From an uncultured bacterium (GTDB lineage Bacteria; JADJOY01), in contig CAYVDO010000002.1 of the NCBI GenBank assembly GCA_964450125.1, positions 1-59,938 on the forward strand: a DNA stretch of 59,938 bases, read 5' to 3'. The stretch's first letter is position 1; every line of letters starts with the position of its first letter. Below are positions 2,665 through 49,845 of this stretch, piece by piece. A program made the translations under genes and the position numbers. The notes below the pieces were generated by a model that made no database searches, was not told the DNA's origin, and saw nothing but the letters and a program-made list of their open reading frames with translations.

Positions 2665-2709
2665 GAGGAGCCTGTCGGAAAATGTGCTTCGCACGCCGAC
2701 AGGCTCCTC
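2665..2709. other. Perfect 14-bp inverted repeat (gaggagcctgtcgg / ccgacaggctcctc) with a 17-nt loop, directly left of repeat copy A
   Basis: Read directly from the sequence. It shares the gcctgtcg string with the left flanks of repeat copies B and C. Confidence 0.5.
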
Positions 2710-2725
2710 GCTTGATGCTCCCCCG

Positions 2726-2827
2726 CGGGTCTGTTCCAGACCCCCGCCCCGAAAAAGGCGTGACTTTTTCGGGGCCCCACCCCCAAGTCGGCTCGGCTTC
2801 GCTCGCCGATCCTCGCCTTCGGCGAGG
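2726..2827 (+). repeat. Three-hairpin dispersed repeat, copy A
   Basis: H1 gggtctg-ttc-cagaccc (2727-2743). H2 ccccgaaaaa-N8-tttttcgggg (2747-2774). Then the ccccacccccaag motif, and H3 cctcgcc-ttc-ggcgagg (2811-2827). Near-identical core to copy B. Confidence 0.7.
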
Positions 2828-2869
2828 CTAGGAGCGTGTCGGGAACGAATTTCCCGACACACTCCTAGG
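2828..2869 (-). terminator. Stem-loop about 30 nt downstream of the ComEA-like stop codon; possible terminator, but no clear U-tract
   Basis: ctaggagcgtgtcgggaa-cgaa-tttcccgacacactcctagg, a near-perfect inverted repeat. Confidence 0.35.
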
Positions 2870-2900
2870 CAGCTCCGCGCGGAGGATCGCGAGCGCGGGA

Positions 2901-36341: not shown

Positions 36342-37700
36342 ATGGATACTGCCTACGTCGTCGACACCAGCGTCTTGGTCCACGATCCTCGCGCGCTCAA
36401 CGCCTTCCGCAAGACCACCGTCGCCATCCCCATCTTCGTGGTGATGGAGCTCGACGACCTCAAGAACAACCGCCGCTTCGAGGTCGCCGCCGCCGCGCGA
36501 GTGGCTTCACGCTTCATCTCTTCGCTGCGCGAGTTCGGGAACCTCTCGGGCGAAGCCGGCGTGCACCACCCCGACCTCGGCACCACCTTCCACATCATCT
36601 CGGACGGCAACGGCGGGCTCGACCACCTGAGCGAACGCACCAACGACCGCAGCATGGATCTCTTGATCCTCGCCTCGGCGCTGGCGCTCAAGCAGCGCGA
36701 CCTCTACAAGCGCGTGGTGCTCATCAGCAAAGACGTGAACCTGCGCATCCTCGCCGATTTCGAAGGCCTGGAAGCCGAGGACTACGAGACTGATCGGGTC
36801 GAGCTACGCGACCTCTACACCGGCTACCGCATTCTCGAACGGCAATCGGTGCCGTCCGTGGACGAGTGGGGAGACGAGAGCGTGCTCGTGCCCCGCGAGC
36901 TGGGCCTCGCCGATCTACACCCCAACGAATTCGTGGCGGTGAAGAGCGGGCCCGCCGAGCGCGTGTGGCGCTATCAGTCGGTGACCGGACAGCTCGAGCC
37001 CGTCGCCGCCGAGTTCCGCGAGCTCGCCGACGTGCAGCCGCGCAACATCGAGCAACGCATGGCGCTCGATCTGCTGCTCGACCCGCGGGTGAAGCTGGTG
37101 ACGCTGGTGGGTAAAGCCGGCACCGGCAAGACGTTCCTGGCCCTGGCCGCCGCGCTGGCGCAGGTGCAGAAGGGCAAGAAGCGGCGCTCCTACGAGCGCA
37201 TCCTGCTCTCGAAGCCGGTGGTGTCGATGGGCCAGGACGTGGGCTATCTGCCCGGAGACTTCGACGCCAAGATGCAGCCGTGGATGACGTCGTTCTTCGA
37301 CAACTTCGATCAGCTCATCGTGAGCGACGGCGCCGCCTCCGGCAAAGGCGCCACCCGAGATACCAAGAGCTGGGAGTACCTCTTCCACTCGCGCCAGCTC
37401 GAGGTGCAGGCGATCCACACCATCCGCGGGCGTTCGATCTCGTCGGCGTTCATGCTCATCGACGAGGCCCAGAACTTGACGCCGCACGAGGTGAAGACCG
37501 TCATCACCCGCGCCGCCGACGGCACCAAGGTGGTGCTCGCCGGCGACCCGTACCAGGTGGACAACCACTTCCTCGACCAGCACTCGAACGGGCTGGTCTA
37601 CGTGACCGAGCGGCTCAAGAGCTCGCCGATCACGGGCACGGTGTTCTTCTCGCGCGGCGAACGCAGCGAGCTCGCCGAGCTGGCCGCGACGCAGCTCTGA
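36342..37700 (+). CDS. PhoH2-type protein (N-terminal PIN domain + PhoH ATPase)
   Basis: PIN segment YVVDTSVLVHDP...VVMELDDL. PhoH Walker A LVGKAGTGKTFLALA and Walker B FMLIDEAQNLT. Confidence 0.9.
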   Translation: MDTAYVVDTSVLVHDPRALNAFRKTTVAIPIFVVMELDDLKNNRRFEVAAAARVASRFISSLREFGNLSGEAGVHHPDLGTTFHIISDGNGGLDHLSERTNDRSMDLLILASALALKQRDLYKRVVLISKDVNLRILADFEGLEAEDYETDRVELRDLYTGYRILERQSVPSVDEWGDESVLVPRELGLADLHPNEFVAVKSGPAERVWRYQSVTGQLEPVAAEFRELADVQPRNIEQRMALDLLLDPRVKLVTLVGKAGTGKTFLALAAALAQVQKGKKRRSYERILLSKPVVSMGQDVGYLPGDFDAKMQPWMTSFFDNFDQLIVSDGAASGKGATRDTKSWEYLFHSRQLEVQAIHTIRGRSISSAFMLIDEAQNLTPHEVKTVITRAADGTKVVLAGDPYQVDNHFLDQHSNGLVYVTERLKSSPITGTVFFSRGERSELAELAATQL

Positions 37701-37703
37701 TTT

Positions 37704-37803
37704 CCGGGGGGCTTTTCAAGCCCGCGCCCGCCCGGAGTGAATCCGGGCGGATCCCACCCCCGAGTCACTCGCTTCGCTCGTGGCGTCGCGCTGCGACGCG
37801 CCA
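37704..37803 (+). repeat. Three-hairpin dispersed repeat, copy D
   Basis: Starts 4 nt after the PhoH2 stop. H1 gggctt-ttc-aagccc (37709-37723). H2 ccgcccgga-gtgaa-tccgggcgg (37728-37750). Then atcccacccccgagtcactcgcttcgctcg (near-identical to copy E) and H3 gcgtcgc-gct-gcgacgc (37783-37799). Confidence 0.7.
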
Positions 37804-37930
37804 CGTGGCGAATCCCTTCGTTGCCCGGTCCGGCATCCACATCGGGCTCTTCGAGCCGCCTGGGAGTGTAGGAGCGCCCGTGAGGCCGCCCGGGATCGGG
37901 ATCGACCGGCGCGCGCCCCACCGCCGCCGC

Positions 37931-38446
37931 TCAGCTCTTCGCCGGTGGCTTGCGCTCCAGCAGACAGAAACCGTGACCGAAGGGATCGGCGCAAGACGCT
38001 GCCGAGCCGTGCGCGGGGTTCTCGAAGATCTGCTCGACCGCGCCGCCCGCGTTCCGAACCCGCGCCATCATCCCGTTCAGCTCGTCGACGTGGAAGTCCA
38101 GGTGCACGGGTGTCCAGTGACGATCGTAGCGCCGGCTTTCCGCGGTCTTCGCTGACGGATGCGAGCCCAAGCTATCTGGACCGCTCTCGCACGGCGCTGC
38201 CGGCATACGCCTTTCCTTGCGCACGTTACGCCGGTGCCTGGCGGAGGACAACCCCGCTATCTGGGCGAAGATAACGCGATGGTGTGCTCGGGCCGGGGCA
38301 GCGCTCACTACCACCCCACCACGGGACCGTCGTAGGTTCGCACCCAGCGGCCTCCAGCGAGCGGCGTCGGCGAGATCGGGCCGGAAGCGGGCCGCGACGA
38401 GCTGCGCGTGACCGAGGGTGACTCGCGGGCGCGAGCGGTTGCGCAT
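37931..38446 (-). CDS. VOC/glyoxalase-like family protein; start uncertain
   Basis: C-terminal HLDFHVDELNGMMARVRNAGGAVE...ADPFGHGFCLL. Candidate start at MRNRSRPRVTLGHAQLV (38446) or MPAAP (38206). Confidence 0.5.
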   Translation of the reverse strand: MRNRSRPRVTLGHAQLVAARFRPDLADAARWRPLGANLRRSRGGVVVSAAPARAHHRVIFAQIAGLSSARHRRNVRKERRMPAAPCESGPDSLGSHPSAKTAESRRYDRHWTPVHLDFHVDELNGMMARVRNAGGAVEQIFENPAHGSAASCADPFGHGFCLLERKPPAKS

Positions 38447-38500
38447 CCGAGGGGCGATTCGGCGGTGCCGCACGCTGCGGGGGGGAGACGAGCCCGGCGT

Positions 38501-39592
38501 CTACGGCACGAATGCGAGGAACAGGTAGGACGCGAAAAGCACGAGGTGCACGGCGCCTTGCATCACGTACGTGCGGCCGGTGGTGAGGGTGACGGCGCTC
38601 ACCAGGAAGGTGATCGCGAGCATCACCATGTCCTTGGGTGCGACGCCGAGCACGAGCGGTAGGTCGAGGACGATCGAAGCGGTCACGACGACCGGCACGG
38701 TGAGGCCCACGCACGCGAGGGCCGAACCGATGGCGAGGTTCATGCTCGACTGAAGCCCGTTGGCGCGCGCGGCGCGCACGGCGGCCCACGTCTCCGGCAA
38801 GAGCACCAGCGCGGCGATGATGATGCCGACCACGGCGCGCGGGGCGTCGGCGGCGGCTACCGCGTTCTCGATGGTGGGCGAGAGCTTTTTCGCGAGGCCC
38901 ACGACGGCCACCAGCGCGAGCAGGAGCAGTCCGAAGCTTGTCCAAGCCTGGGCGTTGGTGGGTGGCGCGGCGAAATGCTCGGGCCCGCCGTCGCCGTCGG
39001 GTGGGAGGAAGTAGTCGCGGTGGCGGACGGTCTGGCTGAACACGAAGATCGCCCACAGTGCCGCCGAGGCCACCGCCACGAACGCGCGCTGCGACACGCT
39101 GTACGTGGGCCCCGGGGAGGTGATCGTGAACGCCGGCAGCACCAACGTGAGCGTGGCCATGACCATGAGCGCCGCGAGGCCAGCGCCAGCGCCTTCCACG
39201 CGGAACGTCTGCTCGCGGTGCGCGAGCCCGCCCACCCACACGCAGAGCCCCACCACGCCGGTCGAGATCAGCATCACCGCCGCGTAGATCGCGTCGCGCG
39301 GCAAGGTAGCCATGTCGTCGCCACCGGCGAGCATCATCGAGAGGATGAGTGCCGTCTCGATCGCGGTGACGGCGAGCGCGAGCACCAGCGTCCCGAACGG
39401 CTCGCCCACGCGATGGGCGACCACCTCGGCGTGATGGACCGCGGCGAACACGGCACCCGCGAGGGCTGCACCGCACACCAGCGCCAGCCACGGCGTCATG
39501 GCGATCGCCGCGGCAGCGCCGAGCGAGCCGAGGGCGAGCACGGGAATCAGCCAGGTCCAGAACGGCATCGTCGATCTCACCGGAGCCCGCAA
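38501..39592 (-). CDS. chaA: Ca2+/H+ antiporter (CaCA family, ChaA-like)
   Basis: 11-TM profile. Alpha-repeat motifs ALAVTAIETALILSMM and the second-half equivalent. Confidence 0.8.
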   Translation of the reverse strand: MRAPVRSTMPFWTWLIPVLALGSLGAAAAIAMTPWLALVCGAALAGAVFAAVHHAEVVAHRVGEPFGTLVLALAVTAIETALILSMMLAGGDDMATLPRDAIYAAVMLISTGVVGLCVWVGGLAHREQTFRVEGAGAGLAALMVMATLTLVLPAFTITSPGPTYSVSQRAFVAVASAALWAIFVFSQTVRHRDYFLPPDGDGGPEHFAAPPTNAQAWTSFGLLLLALVAVVGLAKKLSPTIENAVAAADAPRAVVGIIIAALVLLPETWAAVRAARANGLQSSMNLAIGSALACVGLTVPVVVTASIVLDLPLVLGVAPKDMVMLAITFLVSAVTLTTGRTYVMQGAVHLVLFASYLFLAFVP

Positions 39593-39657
39593 ACGTGGAC
39601 TCGGGGCAGATCAGGGTGGCAGCAAAACGCTGCCGAGCGAAACGGCGTGCACGGTGT

Positions 39658-40164
39658 TCAGCAAGCGCTACAGCGGCCTTGAATCAGCACTTGCGACACG
39701 TCGGCGATCGGCGGGCGCGGCGAGCCGGCACGGGGCGAGATGCGCACGTCCACGTTCGGCAAGCACGTGAGCGCGCCGCACCCAACACACACGAAATGGG
39801 GATGCACCTGATCGCGCGCGACGGCATGCGGCGCTGCGCCGCCCGCCGCACCTCGCTCGAATCGCCAGGTGTGGTCACCAAAGTCGATGCGCCTGAGCAA
39901 GCCAGCCTCGGTCAGGTCGATGAGGTTGCGATAGAGGGTGGCGCGATCGAAGCCGTGAGCGCTCAGGGCTTCGACGAGCTCGCCGTGGCTGAGTGGCGTG
40001 GACGAGCGCCCGAGCGCGCCGAGCACCGCGATTCGGGAGGTGGTGCCGCGCAGTCCAGCGCGTTGGAGATCGGCTCGGATCTGGGCCGTGTCGCTGGCAG
40101 GCGCCTCGCGACCCTCGGTCTCGGCTCGCGCGCGGCGTACGGCGGATCGATTCGACGATCGCAT
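39658..40164 (-). CDS. zur: Fur-family metalloregulator, probably Zur given the context
   Basis: Start MRSSNRSAVRR (ATG at 40164). Winged helix RIAVLGALGRSSTPLSHGELVEAL. HPHFVCVGCG...GRCSAC (two CxxC). Adjacent to znuA/znuB-like genes. Confidence 0.8.
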   Translation of the reverse strand: MRSSNRSAVRRARAETEGREAPASDTAQIRADLQRAGLRGTTSRIAVLGALGRSSTPLSHGELVEALSAHGFDRATLYRNLIDLTEAGLLRRIDFGDHTWRFERGAAGGAAPHAVARDQVHPHFVCVGCGALTCLPNVDVRISPRAGSPRPPIADVSQVLIQGRCSAC

Positions 40165-40356
40165 CGGAGAATCACGCTCGGGTCGCAACCGACCGCACGA
40201 GGGTACCACGCGCGTTTCGCCCGCTGGAACGGCGGACGCGCGCGACACGGCGTGAGCATCCTCGGGCCGCGCTGGTGGCCGACGACGCACCTCGGGTGTT
40301 AGAGAATTCAGGCCGCGCTCGTGATCCACTTCAGCGTCTCGGCATCCAGCTCGTCC

Positions 40357-40713
40357 ATGTCTCCGCGCTCGTTCTCGCCTCGTCGCAGCCTGGCGCTCGC
40401 GCTCGCGCTGGTGCTCGGCGCGTGGGCAAACCTCGACCTCGCCGCCTTCCACGGCCAGCGCGCCGTCGCTGGCGTGTCGGTGGGCGTGCCGTGGGCCGCC
40501 CAGCTCGCGGATGGCGGTCTGCAGACTGCGGCGCGGTCCAGCCACGCGACGAGCCACCAGTGCGTGTTCTCGTCGGTGGCGCATGGCACGCACACTGCGT
40601 CGTTCCAGCCCGAGCGCGGCGCCGCAGAAGCCTCCAGCCGCGCAGCCTCCGCGCTCGCTCTTCCCCGGCGCATCCCGGGGCGCACGGCGTCGGGCCTCGC
40701 TCCTCCCGCCTGA
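40357..40713 (+). CDS. Hypothetical small secreted protein (signal peptide, His/Cys-containing)
   Basis: MSPRSFSPRRSLALALALVLGAWA signal. Strong GC3 bias in this frame. SHATSHQCVFSSVAHGTH segment. No family assignment. Confidence 0.4.
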   Translation: MSPRSFSPRRSLALALALVLGAWANLDLAAFHGQRAVAGVSVGVPWAAQLADGGLQTAARSSHATSHQCVFSSVAHGTHTASFQPERGAAEASSRAASALALPRRIPGRTASGLAPPA

Positions 40714-40867
40714 TCTCGGCCTCGTTTCGCCGCGTGCTCGCGCCGTCGCCGTGTTCGCGCCCGTGATCCGCGGCTGATCCCCGAGATTCGCGCAGCGCGT
40801 GCCGCCGTCGCGGCGCACGCGGCGCACGTCGCGACGCGCGTTCGGCGCGTCGCGGGAGGACGATTCC

Positions 40868-42319
40868 ATGAAACTCGCGCATCCGCGTGCGCATCACCTG
40901 CCGTACGTTGCAGCCCTGGCGATCGCGTCGTTCGCGTCGTTCGCCTTCGCCCAGGACTCCACGCCGAGTGGAGGCTCGGCCTGGACGCAGCCCATCCGGG
41001 TCGGCTCGGCCGGCTCCGCGTACCTCAACCTCTCGCTCGACGCGCTCTTCTCGGTCGGGACCTCGACCGAAAAGGAGGTGACGTCGCTCCAGCTCGGCGG
41101 ACACGACCCGAGCCAGCGCGGCTTCACCGTCCAGAACGTCGAGGCGGTGTTCGACGGCGCGGTCGACCCGTACTTGAAGGGCACGGCGAACGTCATCTTC
41201 CAACTCGACCCCGAAGGAGAAACCGTCGTCGAGCTGGAAGAGGCCTACCTCGTCACCCAGTCGCTGCCGTGGGACTTGCAAGCGAAGGCGGGCCAGTTCC
41301 TGACCGAGCTCGGGCGCATCAACGGCCGCCATCCGCACCAATGGGACTTCGTGGACATCCCGCTGGTGAACGGCCGCCTGCTCGGCGGCGACGGGCTACG
41401 CGGTCCGGGCGCGCGGCTCTCTTGGCTCATGCCGCTGCCCTTCTACTCGGAGATCCTCGTCACCCTGCAGAACAGCCAAGGCGAGACCGCAGCCAGCTTC
41501 CGCAACGAGAACGAAGGCGAGCCGCTCTTCGGTCGCGTCCCCGAGGACCGCGGCGTGAACGAGCTGGGCGACATGCTCGTGAGCGGCCGCTGGTCGGGCT
41601 CGTTCGATCTCACCGACGACCAGACGCTGGTGCTCGGGGTCTCGGGTGTTTCGGGGCCGAACGCCACCGGCGAAAACACCCACACCCAGATCTACGGCAC
41701 GGACCTCTACTGGAAGTGGAAGTCGCCGCGCGCCGAGCAGGGCTTTCCATTCGCGTCGTTCACCACCGAAGCCATGTATCGACGCTTCCAGGCGGGCGAG
41801 GAGCTCGCGTCGGCGAGCTCCGCCCGCCTGTCGATCCTTTCTCGGGGGTCTGTTCCAGACCCCCGCCCCGCAAAAGGCGCGACTTTTGCGGGGCCCCACC
41901 CCCAAGCCGAGTCGCTTTGCTCGTCGCGCGCCGCTGGCGCGTGCCTCTCGTTGGCAACCGTTGATCACACGGGCGCGTTCGAGAGCACGCCGGAATCTCC
42001 CGACGAAGCGCCGCTGGTGCTGCCGCACGAGACGCTCGAAGACTGGGGGCTCTACGCACAGGCGCTCTACGGCTTCACGCGCGGCTGGGTCGCCGGCGTG
42101 CGCGGCGATTTCGTGGGCGGCAACCGCGGCGCCTTCGACCCCGATCCCGATCGCTCGCGGCGAGTGCGCGTGTCACCGGTGCTCACCTGGTACCCGAGCG
42201 AGTTCTCGAAGCTCCGTCTCCAGTACAACCTCGATCGCGTCGAAGACCGGGCGTACGACCACTCGGTCTGGCTCTCGGCCGAGTTCCTGATCGGCAGCCA
42301 CGGCGCACACAGCTTCTGA
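40868..42319 (+). CDS. Outer-membrane beta-barrel protein of the zinc cluster, carrying an in-frame repeat-element insertion
   Basis: Start MKLAHPRAHHLPYVAALAIASFASFAFA after gggagga. Beta-strand-rich sequence. The C-terminal ...WLSAEFLIGSHGAHSF ends in an aromatic residue. Confidence 0.7.
   Translation: MKLAHPRAHHLPYVAALAIASFASFAFAQDSTPSGGSAWTQPIRVGSAGSAYLNLSLDALFSVGTSTEKEVTSLQLGGHDPSQRGFTVQNVEAVFDGAVDPYLKGTANVIFQLDPEGETVVELEEAYLVTQSLPWDLQAKAGQFLTELGRINGRHPHQWDFVDIPLVNGRLLGGDGLRGPGARLSWLMPLPFYSEILVTLQNSQGETAASFRNENEGEPLFGRVPEDRGVNELGDMLVSGRWSGSFDLTDDQTLVLGVSGVSGPNATGENTHTQIYGTDLYWKWKSPRAEQGFPFASFTTEAMYRRFQAGEELASASSARLSILSRGSVPDPRPAKGATFAGPHPQAESLCSSRAAGACLSLATVDHTGAFESTPESPDEAPLVLPHETLEDWGLYAQALYGFTRGWVAGVRGDFVGGNRGAFDPDPDRSRRVRVSPVLTWYPSEFSKLRLQYNLDRVEDRAYDHSVWLSAEFLIGSHGAHSF
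41826..41950 (+). repeat. Three-hairpin dispersed repeat, copy B, inside the OMP coding sequence
   Basis: H1 gggtctg-ttc-cagaccc (41846-41862). H2 ccccgcaaaa-N8-ttttgcgggg (41866-41893). Then ccccacccccaag and H3 cgcgcc-gct-ggcgcg (41927-41941). Flanks gcctgtcgat and gcgtgcctc are shared with copy C. Confidence 0.7.
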
Positions 42320-42364
42320 CTTCTCGGGCGGCGCCGCTTCGCGCGCGCCGCGGGAGACTCCTTC

Positions 42365-43330
42365 ATGAAACGAATCGGAGACCTTTTCCCCTCACTCGCG
42401 GCGCTGCTCGTTTTCGGCGCCGTGTTCGCACCCGGCACGACGCGCGCAGCCGAGCTGCGCGTGGTCGCTTCCACTCCCGACCTCGGCGCGATCGCCGAGG
42501 CGGTGGGCGGCGATCGCATCGACGTCACGTCGATTGCGCGCGGCACCGAGGACCCGCATTTCGTCGACCCCAAGCCCAGCCACGTCGTCAGCCTCAATCG
42601 CGCCGACGCCCTCGTCGAAGGCGGCGCCGAGCTCGAGGTGGGCTGGCTTCCGAAGCTGGTCGAGTCGTCGCGCAACGCGAAGATCACGACCGGCGCACCG
42701 GGGCGGATCGTCGGCAACGCGGGCGTCCAGCTCTTCGAGTTCCCCACCGGGCCGATCGACCGCTCGATGGGCGACGTCCATCCCGCCGGGAACCCGCACT
42801 ACCTCCTCGATCCCCGCAACGCCGTGATCGTGGCCGGCACGCTCGCCGAGCGATTCGCCGCGCTCGACACCGGCGGCGCCGAGAACTACCGCGCCAACGC
42901 CGCGGCGTTCACGAGCGACCTCACGAGCCGCATCCAGGGCTGGGAGCGGCGGCTCGCGAGCCTGCGCGGCGCCAAGGTGGTCGAGTACCACAAGCTCTTC
43001 GAGTACCTGGCGCGCTGGCTCGGGCTCGAGATTCTCGGTCAGGTCGAGCCCAAGCCGGGCATCCCGCCCAATCCCGCCCACGTCGCTGCGCTCGAAGCGC
43101 AGATGCGCGGCGCGAAGGTCCCGCTGCTCCTCGCCACGACCTACCACCCCGCCGAGGTCACGGCGGAAATCGCACACCGCACCGGCGCAACGGTGGCGAC
43201 GATTCCCACCTCGGTGGGCGACGGCGAAGGCAACACCACCTACCCCGCGATGATCGAGCAGATCGTCACCGCCCTCGCCAAGGCGACGGCGAGCAGCGCC
43301 GCGACGGCGACGAGAAGCGAGGGACACTGA
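42365..43330 (+). CDS. znuA: Metal (Zn/Mn) ABC transporter substrate-binding protein, ZnuA-like
   Basis: Signal peptide. Also VVASTPDLGAIAEAVGGDRIDVTSIARGTEDPHFVDPKPS and HPAGNPHYLLDP. Confidence 0.8.
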   Translation: MKRIGDLFPSLAALLVFGAVFAPGTTRAAELRVVASTPDLGAIAEAVGGDRIDVTSIARGTEDPHFVDPKPSHVVSLNRADALVEGGAELEVGWLPKLVESSRNAKITTGAPGRIVGNAGVQLFEFPTGPIDRSMGDVHPAGNPHYLLDPRNAVIVAGTLAERFAALDTGGAENYRANAAAFTSDLTSRIQGWERRLASLRGAKVVEYHKLFEYLARWLGLEILGQVEPKPGIPPNPAHVAALEAQMRGAKVPLLLATTYHPAEVTAEIAHRTGATVATIPTSVGDGEGNTTYPAMIEQIVTALAKATASSAATATRSEGH

Positions 43331-43331
43331 C

Positions 43332-44153
43332 ATGGAGCTCATCCACGTGATGACGCTGCCGTTTCTCGCCTGCCTGGTGCTGGTCGGCATCCACGGCTAC
43401 CTGGGACTTCACATCCTCGCTCGCGGCGTCATCTTCGTGGACCTGGCGCTCGCGCAGATCGCGGCGCTGGGTGCGGTGCTCGCGCTGGTGGTGGGGCTCG
43501 ATCACGAGGGGCCGTGGGCCTACTGGTTCTCGGTCACGTTCACGCTCGCGGGGGCCGCGATGTTCGCGCTCACCCGCACCCGCCGCCAGGGCATCCCGCA
43601 AGAGGCGGTGATCGGCATCACCTACGCGGTCGCCGCGGCCGCGGGCGTGATCGCCCTCGACAAGGCGCCGCACGGCGCCGAGGAGCTGAAGGAGATGCTC
43701 ACCGGCGCGATCCTGTGGGTGAACGCCAAGACGGTGCTGCATTCGGCGGCGGTCTACTCGGTGATGGGGCTCGTCCACTGGGTGTTCCGCGACAAGTTCG
43801 TGGCGATTTCGTTCGAGCCGGAGCGCGCCGTCGCCGAAGGAATCGCCGTGCGGTTCTGGGATTTCGTCTTCTACGCGACGTTCGGCATCATCATCACGAT
43901 CTCCGTGCCGGTGGCCGGCGTGTTGCTGGTGTTCACGTTCCTGATCGTGCCCGCCGTGGCGTCGGCGCTGTTGGTCACGGGACTGCGCGCGCGCGTTGCA
44001 GTGGCGTACGCGGTGGGCATGGTGGGCAGCGTGATCGGCTGTGTGGCGAGCTACACCCTCGATTTGCCCACGGGTGCCGCGGTGGTGGTGGTGTTCGGGG
44101 TGATGCTCGCGGTGATCGCGCTCGGTTCGCGACTGCGCCCCGCACAGTCATGA
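43332..44153 (+). CDS. znuB: Metal ABC transporter permease, ZnuB-like
   Basis: LACLVLVGIHGYLGLHILARGVIFVDLALAQIAALG..., with 8-9 TM helices. Confidence 0.8.
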   Translation: MELIHVMTLPFLACLVLVGIHGYLGLHILARGVIFVDLALAQIAALGAVLALVVGLDHEGPWAYWFSVTFTLAGAAMFALTRTRRQGIPQEAVIGITYAVAAAAGVIALDKAPHGAEELKEMLTGAILWVNAKTVLHSAAVYSVMGLVHWVFRDKFVAISFEPERAVAEGIAVRFWDFVFYATFGIIITISVPVAGVLLVFTFLIVPAVASALLVTGLRARVAVAYAVGMVGSVIGCVASYTLDLPTGAAVVVVFGVMLAVIALGSRLRPAQS

Positions 44154-44263
44154 ATTTCCGCCCCTCGCCGCACGTCGATGAGAGGACTCGACGTGTGCAC
44201 GTCTGCGCCGAGCCGCGATCTGCGCCATCCTGTGCCGCCTCTGCGAACACCCCGGGAATCCAC

Positions 44264-47047
44264 ATGCCTCCACATCACCCGCTTCGTCTCCGCGCATGGC
44301 TCGCCTTTCTCGTACCGCTGGTCCTCGGTGGCACGAGCGCCAGGGCGGACGAGCTCGCCGAGCGCTTCCCCGCCGACGTCCGCGCGGCACTCGAGGCACT
44401 CCCCGAGCGCTCGCGCCCGGTGGAGCTACGCGCGACTCCGAACGGCGCGCTCTACGCGCTGCTGCCCAACGGCGCCGAGCTCATCGCGCTGGAAAAGCGC
44501 AATGCGCCAGTGGTGAGCGTGCAGGCGTGGGTTCGCACCGGCGCCATCCACGAGCAGGAATGGCTCGGCGCCGGGCTCAGCCATTTCTGTGAGCACCTGC
44601 TCTTCAAGGGCACCACCAAGCGCCCCACCGGCCAGCTCGAGCAGGACATCCGCGGAGGCGGCGGCGACAACAACGCGTACACGTCGAGCGAACGCACCGT
44701 GTACCACGTGACCACCGCAGCCTCGAGCTTCGCCACTGCGTTCGACGCGCTCTCCGACATGCTCATGAACGCCACCTTCCCGCCCGAGGAGGTGAAGAAA
44801 GAACACGGGGTGGTGCAGAAGGAGATCGAGCGCGCCAGCGACGACCCCGACCGCGCGCTCTACGATCAGTTCGAGGCCACGCTCTACCAGGCGCACCCCT
44901 ACCGCGTTCCCGTGCTCGGCTACGCCGACCGCTTCGCGCGAGTGACGCGGGAAGAGGTCTACGCCTACTACAAGCGCCGCTACAGCCCGTCGAACACGGT
45001 TTTCATCGCCGTCGGCGACTTCCGCGCCGCGGACGCGCTCACGCTCATGGCGAGCACCGTGGCGGGTTGGACGCGAACCAGCATCCCGCCAGCGTTGGTG
45101 CCGAGCGAACCGCCGCAGATCGCCGCGCGGGAGGTGGCGATCTCACACCACCTCGCCAAGGTGCCGAAGATGATCATCGGCTTCCCGACGGTCTCGGCTC
45201 GCGACCCCGATCTCTACGCCCTCGACGTGCTCGCCGGCGTCCTCGGTAGCGGCCGGTCGAGCCGTCTCTACCAGAGCGTCAAGGACCAGCAGAAGCTGGT
45301 GCTGGAGGTCTCTGCGTTCAACTACACGCCCCTCCATCCGGGCTATCTCGCGGTCTCGGCCGCCGCGGAGGCCGGCAACCTCGAGGCCGCGCGCGGCGCG
45401 ATCCTCGCGGTGCTGGAGAAGGCGAAGACCGAACCACCCGAACCCGAGGAGTTGGCGCGGGTCAAGCGCGACATCGAGGCGAGCCGAGTCTTCAGTCAGA
45501 TGACCGCGGAGGGTGTCGCCGAACAGCTCGGCAACGACTGGCTCACCACCGGCGATCTCGATTTCTCGCGGCTCTACGCCGAGCGGATCCAGCGCGTGAC
45601 CGCGGACGACGTCGTCGCCGCTGCGCAGAAGTACATCGACCTCGACAAGCTCGACGTGGTGGTGATGACACCGCCCGAGAGCGAGAGCAGAGCGCAGCCA
45701 GCTGCGCCCAGACAGACCACGAGCGGTGCCGAGCCCAGCACCGCGAGCCTCGCCGCCATCGACGCGCTGAAGGCGATGCCCGAGGTCGCCGGTGCCAGCG
45801 TCCAGCACGTGGCCGGCACCGAGGTCTACGAGGTGCAGCTCACGAGCGGCCTGCGCGTGATCGTGCGCGAGGACGCGTCGATCCCTGCCGTCCACGGCGC
45901 CGTCGTGGCGCTCGGCGGCCAGCGCTCCGAGCCTGCAGACAAGGCGGGCGCCGGCAATCTGGTGGCACACATGCTCGATCGCGGCAGCGCCGCCTTCACC
46001 AAGGCCGAGCTGGCAGCCAAAGTCGAAGGCCTGGGCGCCGAGCTGAGCCCGTTCGGTGGACGCAACACCTTCGGCATCCAGTTCCGCTGCCTGAAGGAGG
46101 ATCTACCCAAGATTCTGAGCCTCGCGGGCGAGAGCTTTCTCAGGCCGGCGTTCCCCAGCGACGAGCTCGAGGCGCTGCGCAAGGAAACGCTCGCACAGAT
46201 CGACGAGCAGGAATCGAACCTGGCGAGCCTGGACCTCAAGATTCTGCGCGCCACGGTGTTTGGCGATCACCCCTATGCGCGGCCGGTGATCGGCACCAAG
46301 GACACGATCGCGAGCGTGACCGCGGCCGAGCTGGCGAAGCTGCACCGCGCGTGGACGCGCCCCGAGACCAGCGTCGTTACCTTCTCCGGCGACGTTCGCA
46401 GCCTCGATGCCGTGCGCTGGGTGCTCGACTCGTTCCGGAGCTTCCCGCTCGCCGCCGACGCTCCGATCGTGCCGCCTGCGCTGGTGGCGATCGATGCTCC
46501 GCGCAGCGCGGAGCGCGAGGTCGCGGGTCTCACCGGTGCGGCGATCGCGCTCGGCTTCCAGACCGTCAAGATCGGCGACCCCGACCGCGAGGTGCTCGAC
46601 GTCACGGACCGCTTGCTCTCGGGCCTCGGCGGGCGGCTTTACGACGAGCTGCGCGAGAAACGCGGCATCGTGTATCAGGCGTTCGCACGCAACGAGAGCC
46701 AGCTCGACGCCGGATTCTTCCTGTTCTTCGCGCAGACCGATCCCAAGAACCTGGAGCGCACCAAGCAGATCTTCTGGGGCGAGATCGAGAAGCTCGCGCG
46801 CACGCCGGTGCCGGCCAAGGAGCTGGATCAGGTGAAGAAGTATTTCGCCGGCACCGAGGCCATCGAGCTGCAAGACCAAGGACAGGTGGCGCTCCGCATG
46901 GCGCTCTCGGTCCTCTACGGCGAGGGCATCGAGAACGTCTTCACCCGTCACCAACGGATCGAGCGGGTGACGGCGGCCGACATCCAGGCTGCGGCGCAGC
47001 GCTACTTCCTAGCCGAGCGCTCCGCGCTCGCCACCGTGCGTCCCTAA
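44264..47047 (+). CDS. Secreted tandem M16 (pitrilysin-family) zinc peptidase
   Basis: Start MPPHHPLRLRAWLAFLVPLVLGG (ATG at 44264). Inverted zinc motif HFCEHLLF. Two M16 active/inactive domain pairs, about 927 aa. The upstream part of ORF 43514.. is out-of-frame overlap with znuB. Confidence 0.9.
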   Translation: MPPHHPLRLRAWLAFLVPLVLGGTSARADELAERFPADVRAALEALPERSRPVELRATPNGALYALLPNGAELIALEKRNAPVVSVQAWVRTGAIHEQEWLGAGLSHFCEHLLFKGTTKRPTGQLEQDIRGGGGDNNAYTSSERTVYHVTTAASSFATAFDALSDMLMNATFPPEEVKKEHGVVQKEIERASDDPDRALYDQFEATLYQAHPYRVPVLGYADRFARVTREEVYAYYKRRYSPSNTVFIAVGDFRAADALTLMASTVAGWTRTSIPPALVPSEPPQIAAREVAISHHLAKVPKMIIGFPTVSARDPDLYALDVLAGVLGSGRSSRLYQSVKDQQKLVLEVSAFNYTPLHPGYLAVSAAAEAGNLEAARGAILAVLEKAKTEPPEPEELARVKRDIEASRVFSQMTAEGVAEQLGNDWLTTGDLDFSRLYAERIQRVTADDVVAAAQKYIDLDKLDVVVMTPPESESRAQPAAPRQTTSGAEPSTASLAAIDALKAMPEVAGASVQHVAGTEVYEVQLTSGLRVIVREDASIPAVHGAVVALGGQRSEPADKAGAGNLVAHMLDRGSAAFTKAELAAKVEGLGAELSPFGGRNTFGIQFRCLKEDLPKILSLAGESFLRPAFPSDELEALRKETLAQIDEQESNLASLDLKILRATVFGDHPYARPVIGTKDTIASVTAAELAKLHRAWTRPETSVVTFSGDVRSLDAVRWVLDSFRSFPLAADAPIVPPALVAIDAPRSAEREVAGLTGAAIALGFQTVKIGDPDREVLDVTDRLLSGLGGRLYDELREKRGIVYQAFARNESQLDAGFFLFFAQTDPKNLERTKQIFWGEIEKLARTPVPAKELDQVKKYFAGTEAIELQDQGQVALRMALSVLYGEGIENVFTRHQRIERVTAADIQAAAQRYFLAERSALATVRP

Positions 47048-47060
47048 CCGGCTGCTGAAA

Positions 47061-47166
47061 GAGGCACGCGCCAGCGGCGCGCCGACGAGCGTAGCGAGTC
47101 TGCGGGGGTGGGGCCCCGCAAAAACCGCGCTTTTTGCGGGGCGGGGGGCTTGAAGAGCCCCCCGAG
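47061..47166 (-). repeat. Three-hairpin dispersed repeat, copy C
   Basis: On the + strand: cgcgcc-agc-ggcgcg (47067-47081), gggggtgggg, ccccgcaaaaa-N6-tttttgcgggg (47114-47141), gggggct-tgaag-agccccc (47144-47162). Flanked by gctgctgaaa (47051) and tttcagcagc (47205). Confidence 0.7.
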
Positions 47167-47207
47167 GAAGCATCGACAGGCTCGAAAGACTCGCTCCGGC
47201 GAGCTTT

Positions 47208-48134
47208 TCAGCAGCCTGCTGACGCTCGGCGGGCGCGGATGCGCAGGTAGACGTCGTCGCCGCGCCGGAAGCGCTCGAACTTCTCGCTCTCGGCCACCGC
47301 CGCGAAGTACCTCACCTGGGATGCGACGAATCGCGGCAGGCGCAGACGCTCGATGCGGCTCGCCTTGGCGCTACTCGTGAGGCGAAGCGCCTCGATGACG
47401 TTCGCGGTCATGTCCTCGACCGCGACGTCGTCGAAGGCTCCGGATCGCTCGATCGAGCCCCGAAACGCGGCGACGCGGCCGGTGGCGCGGAAGTCGGCGA
47501 TCAAGAGGTGCCCGCCGGGCTTGAGCACGCGTGCAGCTTCGCCCAGGAACGCTCCGAAGTCCGGATACGTGTGCGAGCTCTCCACGCTCAGCACCACGTC
47601 GAACGCTCGATCGGCGAACGGCAGATGCTCGGCGTCGCAACGTTCGAAGCGCAGCCCGGGAATCGGCGGATGGTGCGCGTGGGACGCGCGCACGGCCGCA
47701 CCAGAGAGATCGACGGCGACGTAGCGCCGTGGCTCGAGGTTTCGCGCCAGCCAGGCAGCGCCGCCGCCCAGCCCAGCCCCGACCTCCAGCACGTCGAGTC
47801 CCGTGATCGCCAGTGCGCCCGCATCCGTGGCCGTCCGCTGATAGAGCTCCAGCGCCACCTGGCTCACGAGATCGAGGGCTTGGCCGCGTGCCGGCGCATC
47901 GCCACCGTCGAGGCGAGCGTAGCCGTAGTTGAGGAACGGCCCGCAGACCCCAGTCGCACCGACGAGCGCCGTCACGCCGTCGTAGAAACGTCCATAGAGC
48001 GCCCGCGATTCGTAATGCAGCCGACGGCTCAGGTCGAGAAGCGACCACCACCATCCGAAACGCAACGCTGCCCACCAAACGCGAGTGGGCGCGATCGGGT
48101 GCGACAACGTGGCGACGAGATGCGGCTCGATCAC
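47208..48134 (-). CDS. Class I SAM-dependent methyltransferase
   Basis: VLEVGAGLGGGAAWLA SAM motif. Also FDVVLSVESSHTY and LKPGGHLLIADF. Proposed GTG start at 48134. Confidence 0.8.
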   Translation of the reverse strand: MIEPHLVATLSHPIAPTRVWWAALRFGWWWSLLDLSRRLHYESRALYGRFYDGVTALVGATGVCGPFLNYGYARLDGGDAPARGQALDLVSQVALELYQRTATDAGALAITGLDVLEVGAGLGGGAAWLARNLEPRRYVAVDLSGAAVRASHAHHPPIPGLRFERCDAEHLPFADRAFDVVLSVESSHTYPDFGAFLGEAARVLKPGGHLLIADFRATGRVAAFRGSIERSGAFDDVAVEDMTANVIEALRLTSSAKASRIERLRLPRFVASQVRYFAAVAESEKFERFRRGDDVYLRIRARRASAGC

Positions 48135-48183
48135 GAGGCGCCGATCCTCGCATGTGCGCTGGTCGAAAGCCACGCTCGAGCGA

Positions 48184-49845
48184 TCAGCGGGTGGCGAACA
48201 CCAACACCTCTCGGCTGGCGATCGAATCGCGGTGCACCAGCACCAGCCCCGGCTCGACATGGGACGGATCGAAGAGGGGACGGAGCGCGGGCCGGATGCC
48301 CCACACGGCATAACGATCCAGGACCAAGTGCGTGACGTGGCGCTTGCGTGCGAAGGCCACCAGTGCCGGCGGATCCGCCGCCACCAGCGCGACCATCGGG
48401 CGCCGCGCGTAAAACGCGATCTCGGGCTTCCGGCACATCAGCAACGCGTCGTCGGGAAGGTGGTCGCGCAGCCACTCGCCCACCACCCGGTACTCCACGG
48501 GCTCGCTGTGGGTCGCGACGGCTTTCGCCGTCTTCGCGCCACCGAAGGCCACCAGCGTTGCCACCAGCAACGTGCCCGCTCGCATCTCGGAGACGGCGGG
48601 CAGGCGCCGACGGGCCCAGCGCGCCACAGGTTCGATTCCGGCGGCCGCGAGAAGCAGCGCCGCCGGCACCACCGGCACGAGGAAGCGCGGCAAGATCCCG
48701 TAGAGCGCGAACGCGGCCACCGGCATGCCCGCCGCCGCCACCCACACGAGCCCACGCCGCGACTCGCCACCGGCGCGCCACGCAGCCACCGCACCCGCCA
48801 CGCTCAAGATCGCCAAGGGCCACGGATGCACCTGCCGCGACGGAAGCGCCCGCACCAGGTCCCACACGTTGGCGAGCACGAATCCCATGGCGAAGAGCGG
48901 CTCGCGCCGCGCCACATCGAAGAACGAGTCACCGCGCTCGCGACCGGCGACACCGTCCTCGCCGAAGCCGAGCGTCGGCGCGTCGCCGCCCAGATCGTGG
49001 ACACTGAAACCGAGCGCCTCGTAGGCGAGCACGTCGAGCTTTTCCTTGCGGTGGAGTGAGTCCTTGCCGAGCATCGCGAACGCCATCTCGAGGACCACAC
49101 CGGACTTGGCGCTGAGCGTCCACCGACCGGTGTGGCGATGGAGGTAGCGAACGTACGGGTAGCTCGCGCCGGCGAACGTCACGGCCACGAGCACTGCGGC
49201 GATCGCACGGCGTGCCGGGCGCGCTTCGCCGAACACCGCCAGCGCGACGACGCCCAGCAGGACGTACGCGAGCCCTTCCGGTCGGGTGAGATAGGCGCCG
49301 GCGAATGCGAGCCCTGCCGTCACCGCACCGGCAACCGCGCGCGCGCTCCCTTCCGCGAGCGCGGCACTCGTGACGAGCACGGCCAACCAGCCACCGTACG
49401 CGAGCAGCAAGAACAGCGGCTCGGACATCGAGCCCCAGAACCAGCTCGACACGTAGCTCGTGAGCGTGGGCGAAACGGCCACCAGCCAAGCCGCCCAATG
49501 CGCCGCCGACTCACCGAGGGTGCGGCGAGCCAGCGCGTGCGCGATCGGCACCAAGCCCGCGCCGGCGACCACGAACACGATCCGGCTCGCCCATTCCGGC
49601 GAGCCCACCACACACTCGATTCCTCCCAAGAGCCACGGGAAGAGCGGCGGAAAGATCAGATGCGGCGCCCCCAGCAGCGTGTAGCCCTTGCCGGCCCACA
49701 AGTTGTGGCCGAGCACCAGGTAGAGCGCCTCGTCGGTCCCCACCAGACCTTTGGCGAGCGCGTAGCCCAGCCTGAGCAGCACCGCCGCGAGGGTCGCGAG
49801 CCACGGCGTCGAACCCACCGCGCGCGCCGGCCACACCGCGGTCAC
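48184..49845 (-). CDS. GT39/ArnT-like (PMT_2) membrane glycosyltransferase
   Basis: GTG start at 49845 overlaps the upstream gene stop (GTGA). DEALYLVLGHNLWAGKGY segment, multi-TM. The N-terminal 325 aa of ORF 48184..50820 are out of frame over the neighbouring gene. Confidence 0.8.
   Translation of the reverse strand: MTAVWPARAVGSTPWLATLAAVLLRLGYALAKGLVGTDEALYLVLGHNLWAGKGYTLLGAPHLIFPPLFPWLLGGIECVVGSPEWASRIVFVVAGAGLVPIAHALARRTLGESAAHWAAWLVAVSPTLTSYVSSWFWGSMSEPLFLLLAYGGWLAVLVTSAALAEGSARAVAGAVTAGLAFAGAYLTRPEGLAYVLLGVVALAVFGEARPARRAIAAVLVAVTFAGASYPYVRYLHRHTGRWTLSAKSGVVLEMAFAMLGKDSLHRKEKLDVLAYEALGFSVHDLGGDAPTLGFGEDGVAGRERGDSFFDVARREPLFAMGFVLANVWDLVRALPSRQVHPWPLAILSVAGAVAAWRAGGESRRGLVWVAAAGMPVAAFALYGILPRFLVPVVPAALLLAAAGIEPVARWARRRLPAVSEMRAGTLLVATLVAFGGAKTAKAVATHSEPVEYRVVGEWLRDHLPDDALLMCRKPEIAFYARRPMVALVAADPPALVAFARKRHVTHLVLDRYAVWGIRPALRPLFDPSHVEPGLVLVHRDSIASREVLVFATR

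What the first reader, a model, noticed from the sequence alone, without database searches (positions are those of the whole stretch)
41826..41950. Copy of the structured repeat inserted in frame inside an outer-membrane protein gene of the zinc cluster
Repeat copy B lies within CDS 40868..42319 without breaking the frame. The flanking protein sequence (...TTEAMYRRFQAGEE before, DWGLYAQALYGFTRGWVAGVRGDF... and the C-terminal aromatic residue after) stays in one reading frame.

The element is translated as roughly LSILSRGSVPDPRPAKGATFAGPHPQAESLCSSRAAGACLS. That is a Pro/Gly/Ser-rich segment unlike the surrounding beta-strand pattern, and plausibly a surface loop.

The boundaries gcctgtcgat and gcgtgcctc are shared with intergenic copy C, which argues that the element inserted into the gene rather than originating from it. 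An intragenic, frame-preserving repeat insertion in a presumably Zur-regulated OMP is unusual. It could alter loop structure or mRNA stability and translation.
Basis: partly seen in the sequence, partly recalled or inferred. Interest (0 to 1): 0.65.

Follow-up and report, generated by a model that had tools for sequence, protein, structure and literature searches.

The report
Transposon remnant in-frame inside porin gene
A 173-base non-autonomous IS5-type transposon carrying a hairpin-rich repeat landed inside a zinc-cluster outer-membrane porin gene, where it adds 59 amino acids to a predicted surface loop without breaking the reading frame; this kind of event is already known from Rickettsia and Coxiella, and is seen here in a new repeat family of uncultured bacteria.

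Summary
The OMP CDS 40868-42319 carries 177 extra bases (59 codons) that are absent from all 66 homologues aligned. They are also absent, at DNA level, from three related contigs; one of these (L001) is syntenic over about 14 kb.

The insert is wider than reported, about 41789-41965 rather than 41826-41950. It matches a 173-nt composite element: 15-20 nt terminal inverted repeats around a three-hairpin core. 173 nt plus a 4-bp target duplication gives 177 nt.

Sister copies are flanked by direct CTAG, CTAA or TTAG repeats. The same 20-nt end also terminates 1.3-kb insertion sequences in metagenomes whose transposase matches the NCBIfam IS5 family. So this is an IS5-type MITE.

Copy C is a second precise insertion, on the stop codon of the M16 peptidase. 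It also rewrites the C-terminus of the convergent methyltransferase.

AlphaFold models place the insert at the start of loop L6 of a 16-strand porin-like barrel. The loop is extracellular by topology rule and variable in length among homologues.

The gene is intact, with dN/dS 0.20, similar to its neighbours. Expression is untested.

Verdict: a well-supported but ordinary case, a new member of a known kind (in-frame MITE insertion, as with Rickettsia RPEs). Interest is modest.

The parts
40868..42319 (+). Porin-like outer-membrane protein CDS (483 aa) that hosts the insertion
   Evidence: ORF. At least 3746 homologues. No Pfam or NCBIfam model. AF2 gives a 16-strand barrel. Foldseek hits OmpC/OmpF/OprP/MOMP-type porins at E 1e-9 to 1e-7.
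41789..41965 (+). MITE copy B plus presumed 4-nt duplicated target. 177 nt = 59 codons, read as QAGEELASAS...LATVD
   Evidence: Net insertion of 177 nt versus L001, L002 and L003. Alignment to the 173-nt consensus. Columns empty in 66/66 homologues.
41789..41830 (+). Left end: IS5-type terminal repeat folded back on its own inverted copy (9 bp + bulge + 9 bp hairpin). 64% identical to consensus, with pairing kept by compensatory A-T to G-C changes
   Evidence: A similar variant hairpin occurs in L041.
41844..41864 (+). Core hairpin 1: GGGGGTCTG-TTC-CAGACCCCC
   Evidence: 94.7% of cells paired; GC/UA covariation at two pairs.
41865..41894 (+). Core hairpin 2: GCCCCGCAAAAG...CTTTTGCGGGGC
   Evidence: 98-99% paired; AU/CG and AU/GC covariation.
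41895..41903 (+). Invariant C-rich tract CCCACCCCC
   Evidence: Invariant in 60/60 aligned copies, but it lies inside the search pattern TTTTNCGGGGCCCCACCCCC that selected them, so this is by construction. Independently, CCCACCCC recurs in the three variant copies of the window, which the pattern did not select.
41926..41942 (+). Core hairpin 3: GCGCGCC-GCT-GGCGCGT. A 1-nt deletion just upstream (after 41925) shifts the element's reading frame
41946..41961 (+). Degenerate right terminal repeat (6/16 matches to consensus)
47048..47218 (-). Copy C, 171 nt, 91% identical to consensus. Flanked by CTAA (47044-47047, containing the M16 peptidase stop codon) and CTGA (47219-47222). Its end supplies the last 3 codons and the stop of the convergent methyltransferase
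   Evidence: Empty site in L001. Methyltransferase C-terminus comparison.
2666..2875 (+). Copy A: the same core flanked by a different pair of palindromic mini-elements ending in CTAG
   Evidence: 97.6% identical to L044.
39658..40200 (-). Fur-family regulator gene (context of the zinc cluster)
   Evidence: Pfam FUR. Same arrangement in L001 and L002.
42365..44153 (+). znuA (42365-43330) and znuB-like ABC-3 permease (43332-44153), downstream of the OMP
   Evidence: Pfam ZnuA 3.5e-50 and ABC-3 1.5e-33.

Best explanation
Copy B is a fossil copy of a 173-nt non-autonomous transposable element (MITE). The element has IS5-type terminal inverted repeats (CAGGCTGCTGAAAAACTCGC ... TTTTTCAGCAGCCTG) that enclose a three-hairpin 'core' repeat.

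Shown:
- It entered the porin-like OMP gene of the znu cluster at or next to codon 308, after the lineage split from the L001 and L002 lineages.
- Element plus a 4-bp target duplication is 177 nt, or 59 codons, so the downstream frame is untouched.
- The frame that is read contains no stop codon.
- The gene is intact.

Inferred:
- An IS5-family transposase acting in trans moved the element.
- The 59 residues form a disordered extension of extracellular loop L6. This loop varies from 6 to 32 residues among homologues, so the barrel should still fold and insert.
- The copy was then immobilised by decay of both terminal repeats. A -1/+1 indel pair kept the frame open.
- The event needs no special function. 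It is the rare survivor among many insertions of a high-copy element.
For: - Presence/absence: blastn of the window against syntenic L001 is collinear on both sides of B and C with nothing in between. Junction alignments agree. 66/66 homologues lack the 59 residues.
- Subfamily consensus is 173 nt with 15-nt perfect terminal inverted repeats.
- Direct 4-mers flank sister copies: CTAA/CTAA in L055, TTAG/TTAG in L068, CTAG/CTAG in L053.
- In metagenomes the same 20-nt end is preceded by CTAG 50 times, CTAA 17 times and TTAG 7 times.
- The same ends bound 1.28-1.37 kb elements flanked by CTAG/CTAG. The transposase of one of them (L099) scores 297 bits on NCBIfam NF033581, IS5 family (cutoff 140), and matches Pfam DUF772 + DDE_Tnp_1.
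- IS5 duplicates Py-T-A-Pu, most often CTAG (PMC5493358).
- Topology: AF2 of the window protein puts the insert between strand 11 (293-309) and strand 12 (388-404). The pattern of long loops after odd strands and 2-residue turns after even strands is kept. AF2 of the insert-free P0002 gives the same barrel with a confident 19-residue L6.
- Integrity: dN/dS against L001 is 0.197. Neighbours range 0.154-0.222.
- Not an assembly artefact: the same gene continues on both sides, and B is only 77% identical to the consensus.
Against: - No recognisable target duplication or right terminal repeat survives at B. The candidates are CTTC versus TGAT, and the right end matches the consensus at 6/16.
- The ancestral site (CTAC or GTAC) is only near Py-T-A-Pu.
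- The first 10 nt of the element equal the target sequence of L002. This is unexplained and leaves room for a recombination-type origin.
- B's ends are far more diverged (64% and 38%) than its core (91%). B may therefore descend from a variant subfamily that I did not sample.
- No IS5 partner was found in the window or in about 640 kb of related MAG sequence.
- Window-branch substitutions have N/S 0.43 against 0.18 and 0.24 on the sister branches (Fisher p = 0.07). Mild relaxation cannot be excluded.
- Expression and folding of the protein are untested.
Confidence: 0.85

Rival explanations
1. The insertion inactivated the gene. The open frame is a recent or lucky pseudogene and no functional porin is made.
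For: - The insert is predicted to be disordered (pLDDT below 50 for 328-367) and adds two cysteines.
- The element forms a very stable RNA structure inside the CDS (-106 kcal/mol, z = -7.7), which could hinder translation.
- The window branch has a roughly twofold higher N/S ratio than the sister branches.
- This exact protein is seen on one contig only.
Against: - There are no stops or frameshifts in 483 codons.
- dN/dS of 0.20 matches the neighbouring znuA, znuB and M16 genes.
- N/S of 0.43 is far below the rough neutral expectation of 2.5-3 (my estimate, not computed).
- A -1 deletion inside the element is compensated within about 30 nt, so the frame stays open.
- All invariant residues of the family are kept.
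- The insertion point is a loop of variable length.
Confidence: 0.25
2. The 59-residue segment is ancestral to the gene and was deleted in the other lineages. The intergenic copies derive from the gene.
For: None beyond the formal possibility.
Against: - 66/66 homologues from many phyla lack it.
- The segment is one copy of a family with more than 80 members in at least 5 genomes, mostly at gene 3' ends.
- Its length equals full element plus duplication.
- A second precise presence/absence case (copy C) lies 5 kb away.
Confidence: 0.01
3. Assembly artefact: a repeat was collapsed or chimerically joined into the gene during metagenome assembly.
For: The window looks like a MAG contig. Repeats are classic sites of misassembly.
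Against: - Both flanks continue the same gene, in the same frame and in the same syntenic order as L001.
- B is a unique, diverged copy, 77% identical to the consensus and with private ends. Reads from other copies could not have built it.
Confidence: 0.03
4. The insertion arose by recombination or template switching, not by transposase action. The event would have been seeded by the 10-nt identity between the element end (CAGGCGGGCG) and the target, or by the element's hairpins.
For: - There is an exact 10-nt match between the element's left end and the L002 target sequence.
- There is no Py-T-A-Pu target and no recognisable duplication at B.
- No transposase was found in the sequence held for this lineage.
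Against: - The net length is exactly 173 + 4 nt.
- Sister copies show textbook IS5-type duplications.
- Copy C, 5 kb away, has CTAA/CTGA flanks.
- IS5 target choice is known to be loose (PMC5493358, Table 3).
Confidence: 0.1
5. The insert has been co-opted. It would serve either as a new surface-loop epitope (phage or predator evasion, altered zinc gating) or as an intragenic RNA structure that tunes expression of the OMP-znuA-znuB operon.
For: - The core is kept at 91% identity while the ends decayed.
- The left hairpin keeps perfect pairing through compensatory changes.
- GC3 of the insert has risen to 0.75, against 0.56-0.67 in other copies. AT-to-GC changes outnumber the reverse 19 to 8.
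Against: - Core conservation is no higher than in intergenic copies (C is 91% identical overall).
- The variant hairpin may predate the insertion (an L041-like variant).
- No terminator-like or promoter-like site lies in the element.
- The insertion is known from a single genome only.
Confidence: 0.08

Closest known systems
Rickettsia palindromic elements (RPEs)
   Same: - Hairpin-rich repeats of about 100-170 nt.
- They insert in frame into protein-coding genes and add a peptide segment. The review describes the modified proteins as predicted to stay compatible in three-dimensional conformation and function (PMC10969869).
   Different: - Unrelated sequence and host (obligate intracellular Alphaproteobacteria, against a high-GC, probably myxobacterial MAG lineage).
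- Nearly half of RPEs lie in ORFs. Here only 1 verified and 2 candidate copies out of about 85 do.
- This family has clear IS5-type ends and target duplications.
IS5-family insertion sequences and their MITE derivatives
   Same: - Identical 15-20 nt terminal repeats.
- 4-bp Py-T-A-Pu duplications (PMC5493358).
- Transposase hit to NCBIfam NF033581.
   Different: - The element codes for no transposase.
- It is composite: a back-to-back pair of ends (a mini-MITE) plus a separate structured core plus a third end.
- The autonomous partner was seen only in unrelated metagenome contigs.
Coxiella burnetii QMITE1 and QMITE2
   Same: - MITEs of 150-400 nt, mostly at gene 3' ends.
- Some copies supply stop codons or C-terminal residues, or sit in frame inside ORFs (PMC5896051). 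This matches what copy C does to the methyltransferase and copy B does to the OMP.
   Different: - Different sequence.
- Different duplication length (2-3 nt or 7-11 nt, against 4 nt).
- Different host.
REP/BIME and ERIC-type intergenic repeats
   Same: - GC-rich hairpins found just downstream of genes.
- Modular combinations of hairpin units.
- ERIC copies occur within genes (PMC10969869, PMC3184786).
   Different: - REPs are 20-40 nt with a GTAG or CGTC tag and a RAYT transposase (PMC3733652). Neither tag was apparent at the core's ends when I read the copies; I ran no dedicated search for the tags or for a RAYT gene.
- No Rfam family matches.

Membership tests
[quoted passage not shown] | Short (under about 500 nt) with no transposase gene | tested here: met
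   173-nt consensus. The only open frames are read-through frames.
MITE | Terminal inverted repeats | tested here: met
   CAGGCTGCTGAAAAA / TTTTTCAGCAGCCTG in the subfamily consensus and in 8 sister copies. In copy B itself they are degenerate: the left 42-nt end-hairpin (terminal repeat plus its inverted copy) is 64% identical to the consensus, and the right 16-nt terminal repeat is 38% identical.
MITE | Target-site duplication flanking copies | tested here: met
   CTAA/CTAA, TTAG/TTAG and CTAG/CTAG in L055, L068 and L053. CTAA/CTGA at copy C. 27 of 53 metagenome elements with the same ends have identical flanking 4-mers. Not recognisable at copy B.
MITE | Multiple dispersed copies, with presence/absence differences between related genomes | tested here: met
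   At least 82 loci in at least 5 MAGs. Empty sites for B and C in L001, and for B in L002 and L003.
MITE | Autonomous element with the same ends in the same genome | tested here: inconclusive
   Found in metagenome contigs (L099, L105, L151, L202, L205). Not found in the window or in about 640 kb of related MAG loci. Whole genomes were not available.
IS5 family (as source of the ends) | 4-bp Py-T-A-Pu duplication and a DDE transposase of the IS5 type bounded by the same inverted repeats | tested here: met
   NF033581 at 297 bits (cutoff 140), plus DUF772 and DDE_Tnp_1. Target consensus from PMC5493358.
Rickettsia palindromic elements | Membership of one of the ten RPE sequence families of Rickettsia | not tested
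   No RPE sequences were available to compare. Host, GC content and the IS5-type ends make membership implausible. The resemblance is functional only.
General porin-type 16-strand outer-membrane barrel | Signal peptide, 16 antiparallel strands, long odd loops and short even turns, C-terminal aromatic residue | tested here: met
   AF2 models (pTM 0.71 and 0.75). Foldseek finds OmpC, OmpF, OprP and MOMP at E 1e-9 to 1e-7, with low TM (0.4-0.6). C-terminal F. These are predictions only.
TonB-dependent receptor (the name carried by P0002) | 22-strand barrel with an N-terminal plug domain and TonB box, typically over 600 aa | tested here: not met
   425-483 aa, 16 strands, and no Plug or TonB_dep_Rec Pfam hit.
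Zur regulon member | Zur box in the promoter and zinc-dependent repression | tested here: inconclusive
   Only linkage to a Fur-family gene, znuA and znuB. No obvious AT-rich palindrome was seen by eye upstream. No motif model was run.

The most novel reading that the evidence does not exclude
The three-hairpin core is not junk. It would be a functional, orientation-specific module at gene 3' ends; it starts 1-17 nt (mostly 5-7) after a same-strand stop codon in 21 of 62 copies. It would spread by hitch-hiking between IS5-type ends. The composite would be pre-adapted to coding regions: 173 + 4 = 59 codons, and four of six frames are open. Occasional in-frame copies such as B would then be retained as new surface-loop sequence, or as an intragenic RNA structure on a zinc-uptake porin operon.
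Probability: 0.1. Interest if true: 0.6.

Novelty: new member of a known kind. Interest (0 to 1): 0.35.

Why it matters
- It gives a clean natural example, outside obligate intracellular bacteria, of a transposon remnant becoming protein sequence. Both the empty orthologous site and the likely transposase family are identified.
- It shows how Py-T-A-Pu-targeting elements in a 69% GC genome gravitate to stop codons and remodel gene ends, as copy C does.
- It defines a previously undescribed repeat family and an unmodelled, zinc-linked porin family. This is useful for annotating these uncultured lineages.
- It does not reveal a new mechanism.

Tried and rejected
- Rfam at gathering threshold and at E up to 10: nothing credible. 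The best hit was BjrC80 at 22 bits against an 80-bit threshold.
- Pfam and NCBIfam on the OMP: no model.
- A second verified in-frame case: the L007 ORF reads through a sister copy, but the 5.8-billion-protein search returned only itself. It remains unverified.
- The L070 open frame joins two UvrA-like halves through a core copy. I could not tell whether that is a real fusion.
- Autonomous partner in the lineage: none in the window or in loci L001-L085.
- Enrichment of open frames in the consensus: mononucleotide shuffles give P = 0.03, but my approximate dinucleotide-preserving shuffles give P = 0.33. I do not claim enrichment.
- Target duplication at B: the CGGGCG repeat seen by MAFFT and BLAST conflicts with the 4-bp rule of the family and with the hairpin that uses 41789-41797. 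I treat it as an alignment ambiguity.
- Terminator-like or promoter-like sites in B: none.
- RNAalifold on its own missed hairpin 1. Pair counts on a structure I supplied support three of four helices.
- The fourth helix (41908-41923) is not supported.
Full report
**1. What is at the coordinates**

The window has 68.7% G+C. An ATG-initiated frame at 40868-42319 encodes a 483-aa protein with an N-terminal signal-like segment and a C-terminal phenylalanine. Its neighbours are:
- a Fur-family gene, upstream and divergent;
- znuA, at 42365-43330;
- an ABC-3 (ZnuB-type) permease, at 43332-44153;
- a two-unit M16 peptidase;
- a convergent methyltransferase.

The 40-nt centre of the repeat recurs at 2736-2775, and no shuffle reached two matches. 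The repeat finder links 41789-41903 to 47104-47218 on the other strand, and to 2714-2795.

**2. It is an insertion, and it is larger than reported**

A search of 5.8 billion proteins gave 3746 homologues at E of 1e-5 or better. The closest are P0002 (425 aa), P0003 (431 aa) and P0004 (427 aa).
- In alignments of 13 and of 67 sequences, the window protein has 59 consecutive residues (311-369) that no other sequence has.
- Between two conserved anchors the homologues have 6-32 residues. The window protein has 76.

P0002 lies on a 37.6-kb contig of MAG GCA_046331705.1 (locus L001). That contig has the same gene order from the Na/Ca exchanger to the methyltransferases. The blastn blocks are:

| Window | L001 |
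|---|---|
| 38494-41798 | 7627-10934 |
| 41972-47045 | 10931-16025 |
| 47219-52487 | 16024-21273 |

Identity is 81-85%. Both copy B and copy C are therefore precise extra segments in the window. Two further contigs, L002 and L003, are also empty at site B. The net gain at B is 177 nt, or 59 codons.

The L001 genome does carry the repeat elsewhere (L032). No such orthologue was found.

**3. What the inserted thing is**

Nearly all of them come from five uncultured MAGs:
- binchicken_co54_89;
- binchicken_co118_326;
- SRP173033_co1_392;
- a MAG labelled 'Deltaproteobacteria bacterium' (Fred_18-Q3-R57-64_BATAC.269);
- STL-UNK1.

All copies share a core:
- hairpin 1, GGGGGTCTG-TTC-CAGACCCCC;
- hairpin 2, GCCCCGCAAAAA...TTTTTGCGGGGC;
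- the C-rich tract CCCCACCCCC, which lies within the search pattern and is therefore constant among these copies by construction;
- a semi-conserved GAGTCGxCTCGCTxxGCTCG;
- hairpin 3, GCGCGCC...GGCGCG.

Outside the core the copies carry different outer modules.

On 60 aligned copies, the three hairpins are 95-99% paired. That compares with 40-59% when the partners are slid. There are 96 double-change cells against 34.5 in shuffles. Those changes separate subfamilies, so they represent few independent events. No Rfam family matches.

Nine copies, including C, form the subfamily to which B belongs. Their consensus is 173 nt. It begins CAGGCTGCTGAAAAACTCGC and ends TTTTTCAGCAGCCTG, a 15-nt perfect inverted repeat.
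- The 4-mers outside the ends are direct repeats that differ between copies: CTAA/CTAA in L055, TTAG/TTAG in L068 and CTAG/CTAG in L053.
- This is what a 4-bp target duplication looks like. It is not what an extended palindrome looks like.

In it:
- the end is preceded by CTAG 50 times, CTAA 17 times and TTAG 7 times;
- many unrelated short elements (modal length 140 nt) use the same ends;
- 1.28-1.37 kb elements are bounded by the same ends and flanked by CTAG/CTAG.

The roughly 360-aa transposase of one of these elements (L099) matches NCBIfam NF033581, 'IS5 family transposase', at 297 bits (cutoff 140). It also matches Pfam DUF772 and DDE_Tnp_1. IS5 duplicates Py-T-A-Pu, most often CTAG, then CTAA and TTAG (PMC5493358).

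The element is therefore an IS5-type MITE. It is composite:
- its first 42 nt are a left end followed by its own inverted copy, a back-to-back 'mini-MITE' like L152 and L196;
- then comes the core;
- then a third end.

Copy A has the same core between two copies of a different palindromic mini-element ending in CTAG. It is 97.6% identical to a copy in another MAG.

**4. Copy B in detail**

173 + 4 = 177 nt, exactly the net gain at B. Identity of B to the consensus by segment is:

| Segment | Identity |
|---|---|
| left end-hairpin | 64% |
| core | 91% |
| right end | 38% |

Overall B is the most diverged member, at 77% against 90-98% for the others.

The left hairpin is still perfect (9 bp, a bulge, 9 bp). 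A-T pairs have been replaced by G-C pairs on both arms. L041 carries a similar variant, so this may predate the insertion.

B has a 1-nt deletion after 41925. It moves the reading from element frame +0 to +1, and an extra base near the right end restores the register.

The consensus has no stop codon in four of six frames. That is not clearly more than chance.

I place the element at 41789-41961, for two reasons:
- 41789-41797 pairs with 41822-41830;
- the length then fits.

On that reading the target was CTAC (L001) or GTAC (L002), which is close to Py-T-A-Pu. The flanking 4-mers are now CTTC and TGAT, so no duplication is recognisable.

MAFFT and BLAST instead put the break at 41798|41799. 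They do so because CAGGCGGGCG is both the element's start and the L002 sequence after the break. I could not resolve this, and I list a recombination-type origin as a rival.

**5. Where it sits in the protein**

AlphaFold2 with 67 sequences (pTM 0.71) gives a 16-strand barrel. The insert lies between strand 11 (293-309) and strand 12 (388-404). Its pLDDT is below 50 over 328-367, while the flanking strands are above 90.

Turns after even strands are 2 residues long, and loops after odd strands are long. By the usual porin rule the insert is therefore in extracellular loop L6. This is an inference.

The insert-free P0002 model (pTM 0.75) has the same barrel and a confident 19-residue L6 forming a small hairpin.

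Foldseek finds general and specific porins (MOMP, OmpC/F/K36, OprP/O) at E 1e-9 to 1e-7, with modest TM-scores. The name 'TonB-dependent receptor' attached to P0002 does not fit this fold.

**6. Is the gene alive?**

It has no stops or frameshifts. dN/dS against L001:

| Gene | dN/dS |
|---|---|
| OMP | 0.197 |
| znuA | 0.222 |
| znuB | 0.154 |
| M16 peptidase | 0.164 |
| Na/Ca exchanger | 0.155 |

In a three-sequence comparison, single-step changes private to the window branch are 20 non-synonymous to 46 synonymous. The two sister branches show 7:38 and 6:25 (Fisher p = 0.07).

Purifying selection clearly dominates. A mild relaxation cannot be excluded. Within the insert, AT-to-GC changes outnumber the reverse 19 to 8, and GC3 is 0.75 against 0.56-0.67 in other copies. 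This is compatible with time spent as coding sequence, but it is weak evidence.

The element RNA would fold at -106 kcal/mol (z = -7.7). No terminator-like or promoter-like site lies in it. Expression is untested.

**7. Copy C and the family's habits**

C occupies 47048-47218. It is flanked by CTAA, which contains the M16 stop codon, and by CTGA. L001 has a single CTGA at this position.

In L001 the convergent methyltransferase overlaps the M16 gene and ends ...RARKTSGTHDGERRAIG. In the window, homology stops at ...RARRAS and the element supplies AGC plus the stop codon.

Among 62 core copies scored:
- 21 start 1-17 nt after the stop codon of a same-strand, coding-like ORF;
- 30 have a convergent gene end downstream;
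- only 4-5 face a gene start.

Several sister copies have their duplicated 4-mer on a stop codon. A Py-T-A-Pu target is rare in a 69% GC genome, whereas TAA and TAG stop codons contain its central TA (inference). That would explain the bias toward gene ends. A function at transcript 3' ends is not excluded.

**8. Comparison and verdict**

In-frame MITE insertions that extend or interrupt proteins are documented:
- Rickettsia RPEs, where nearly half the copies lie in ORFs;
- Coxiella QMITE1 and QMITE2;
- ERIC and BOX elements;
- Anabaena MITEs (PMC10969869, PMC5896051, PMC3184786).

I found no paper on this family or on MITEs in myxobacteria.

The finding is a well-supported new member of a known kind. 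Its interest lies in the clean empty site, the identified transposase family, the composite architecture and the loop placement. It does not lie in a new principle.

Noticed in passing
L004-L085 and window copies (e.g. L009:4379-4492, L013:659-772): The three-hairpin core starts 1-17 nt (mostly 5-7) after the stop codon of a same-strand coding-like ORF in 21 of 62 copies. It almost never faces a gene start. So it is an orientation-specific element at gene 3' ends, of unknown function.
   Followed up: partly
window 47044-47222 and methyltransferase 47208-48311 (-): Copy C sits on the stop codon of the M16 peptidase. It replaces the last 11 residues of the convergent methyltransferase with 3 element-encoded residues and a new stop.
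   Followed up: yes
L070:707-6841 (-): A single 2044-aa open frame joins two UvrA-like halves through a core copy lying on the opposite strand. This is either a repeat-mediated gene fusion or an insertion into the linker of a natural tandem UvrA.
   Followed up: partly
L007:3417-5714 (+): A 766-aa PMT_2/HEAT membrane-protein ORF reads through a full sister copy. The element's in-frame TGA has changed to CGG. NCBI annotates the region as one CDS, but no homologue exists to prove an insertion.
   Followed up: partly
window 40868-42319; L001:10001-11278: The OMP belongs to a large family (at least 3746 proteins) with no Pfam or NCBIfam model. It has His-rich conserved motifs (GGHDP, HPHxWDF, C-terminal HxAHxF) and sits next to znuA. 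It is a candidate zinc-specific porin family, misnamed 'TonB-dependent receptor' in one record.
   Followed up: partly
window 40321-40713 (+); L001:9474-9845; L002:841-1194: A small ORF (117-130 aa) is called at the same position, between the Fur-family gene and the OMP, in L001 and L002, and an open frame lies there in the window. It has no Pfam family on record in L001 and L002. The three were not aligned.
   Followed up: no
window 18358-18441 (+): Rfam DUF3800-VII RNA (RF02967) at 39.6 bits, above its gathering score of 36.2.
   Followed up: no
window 37700-37800 (+), 53076-53170 (-), 3560-3625 (-): Three diverged copies of the same modular core, with a different hairpin 2 sequence but pairing kept. 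The first lies beside the point where synteny with L001 breaks (37929-38494).
   Followed up: partly
L086-L205 (metagenome contigs): The 20-nt IS5-type end CAGGCTGCTGAAAAACTCGC is shared by many unrelated short MITE families (modal length 140 nt), by back-to-back 45-nt mini-elements, and by 1.3-kb IS copies. The carrying contigs differ widely in base composition and sequence; their sample sources were not looked up.
   Followed up: partly
window 2666-2875 (+) versus L044:3777-3986: Copy A is 97.6% identical to a copy in a different MAG. The type-A composite therefore appears young or recently active.
   Followed up: no
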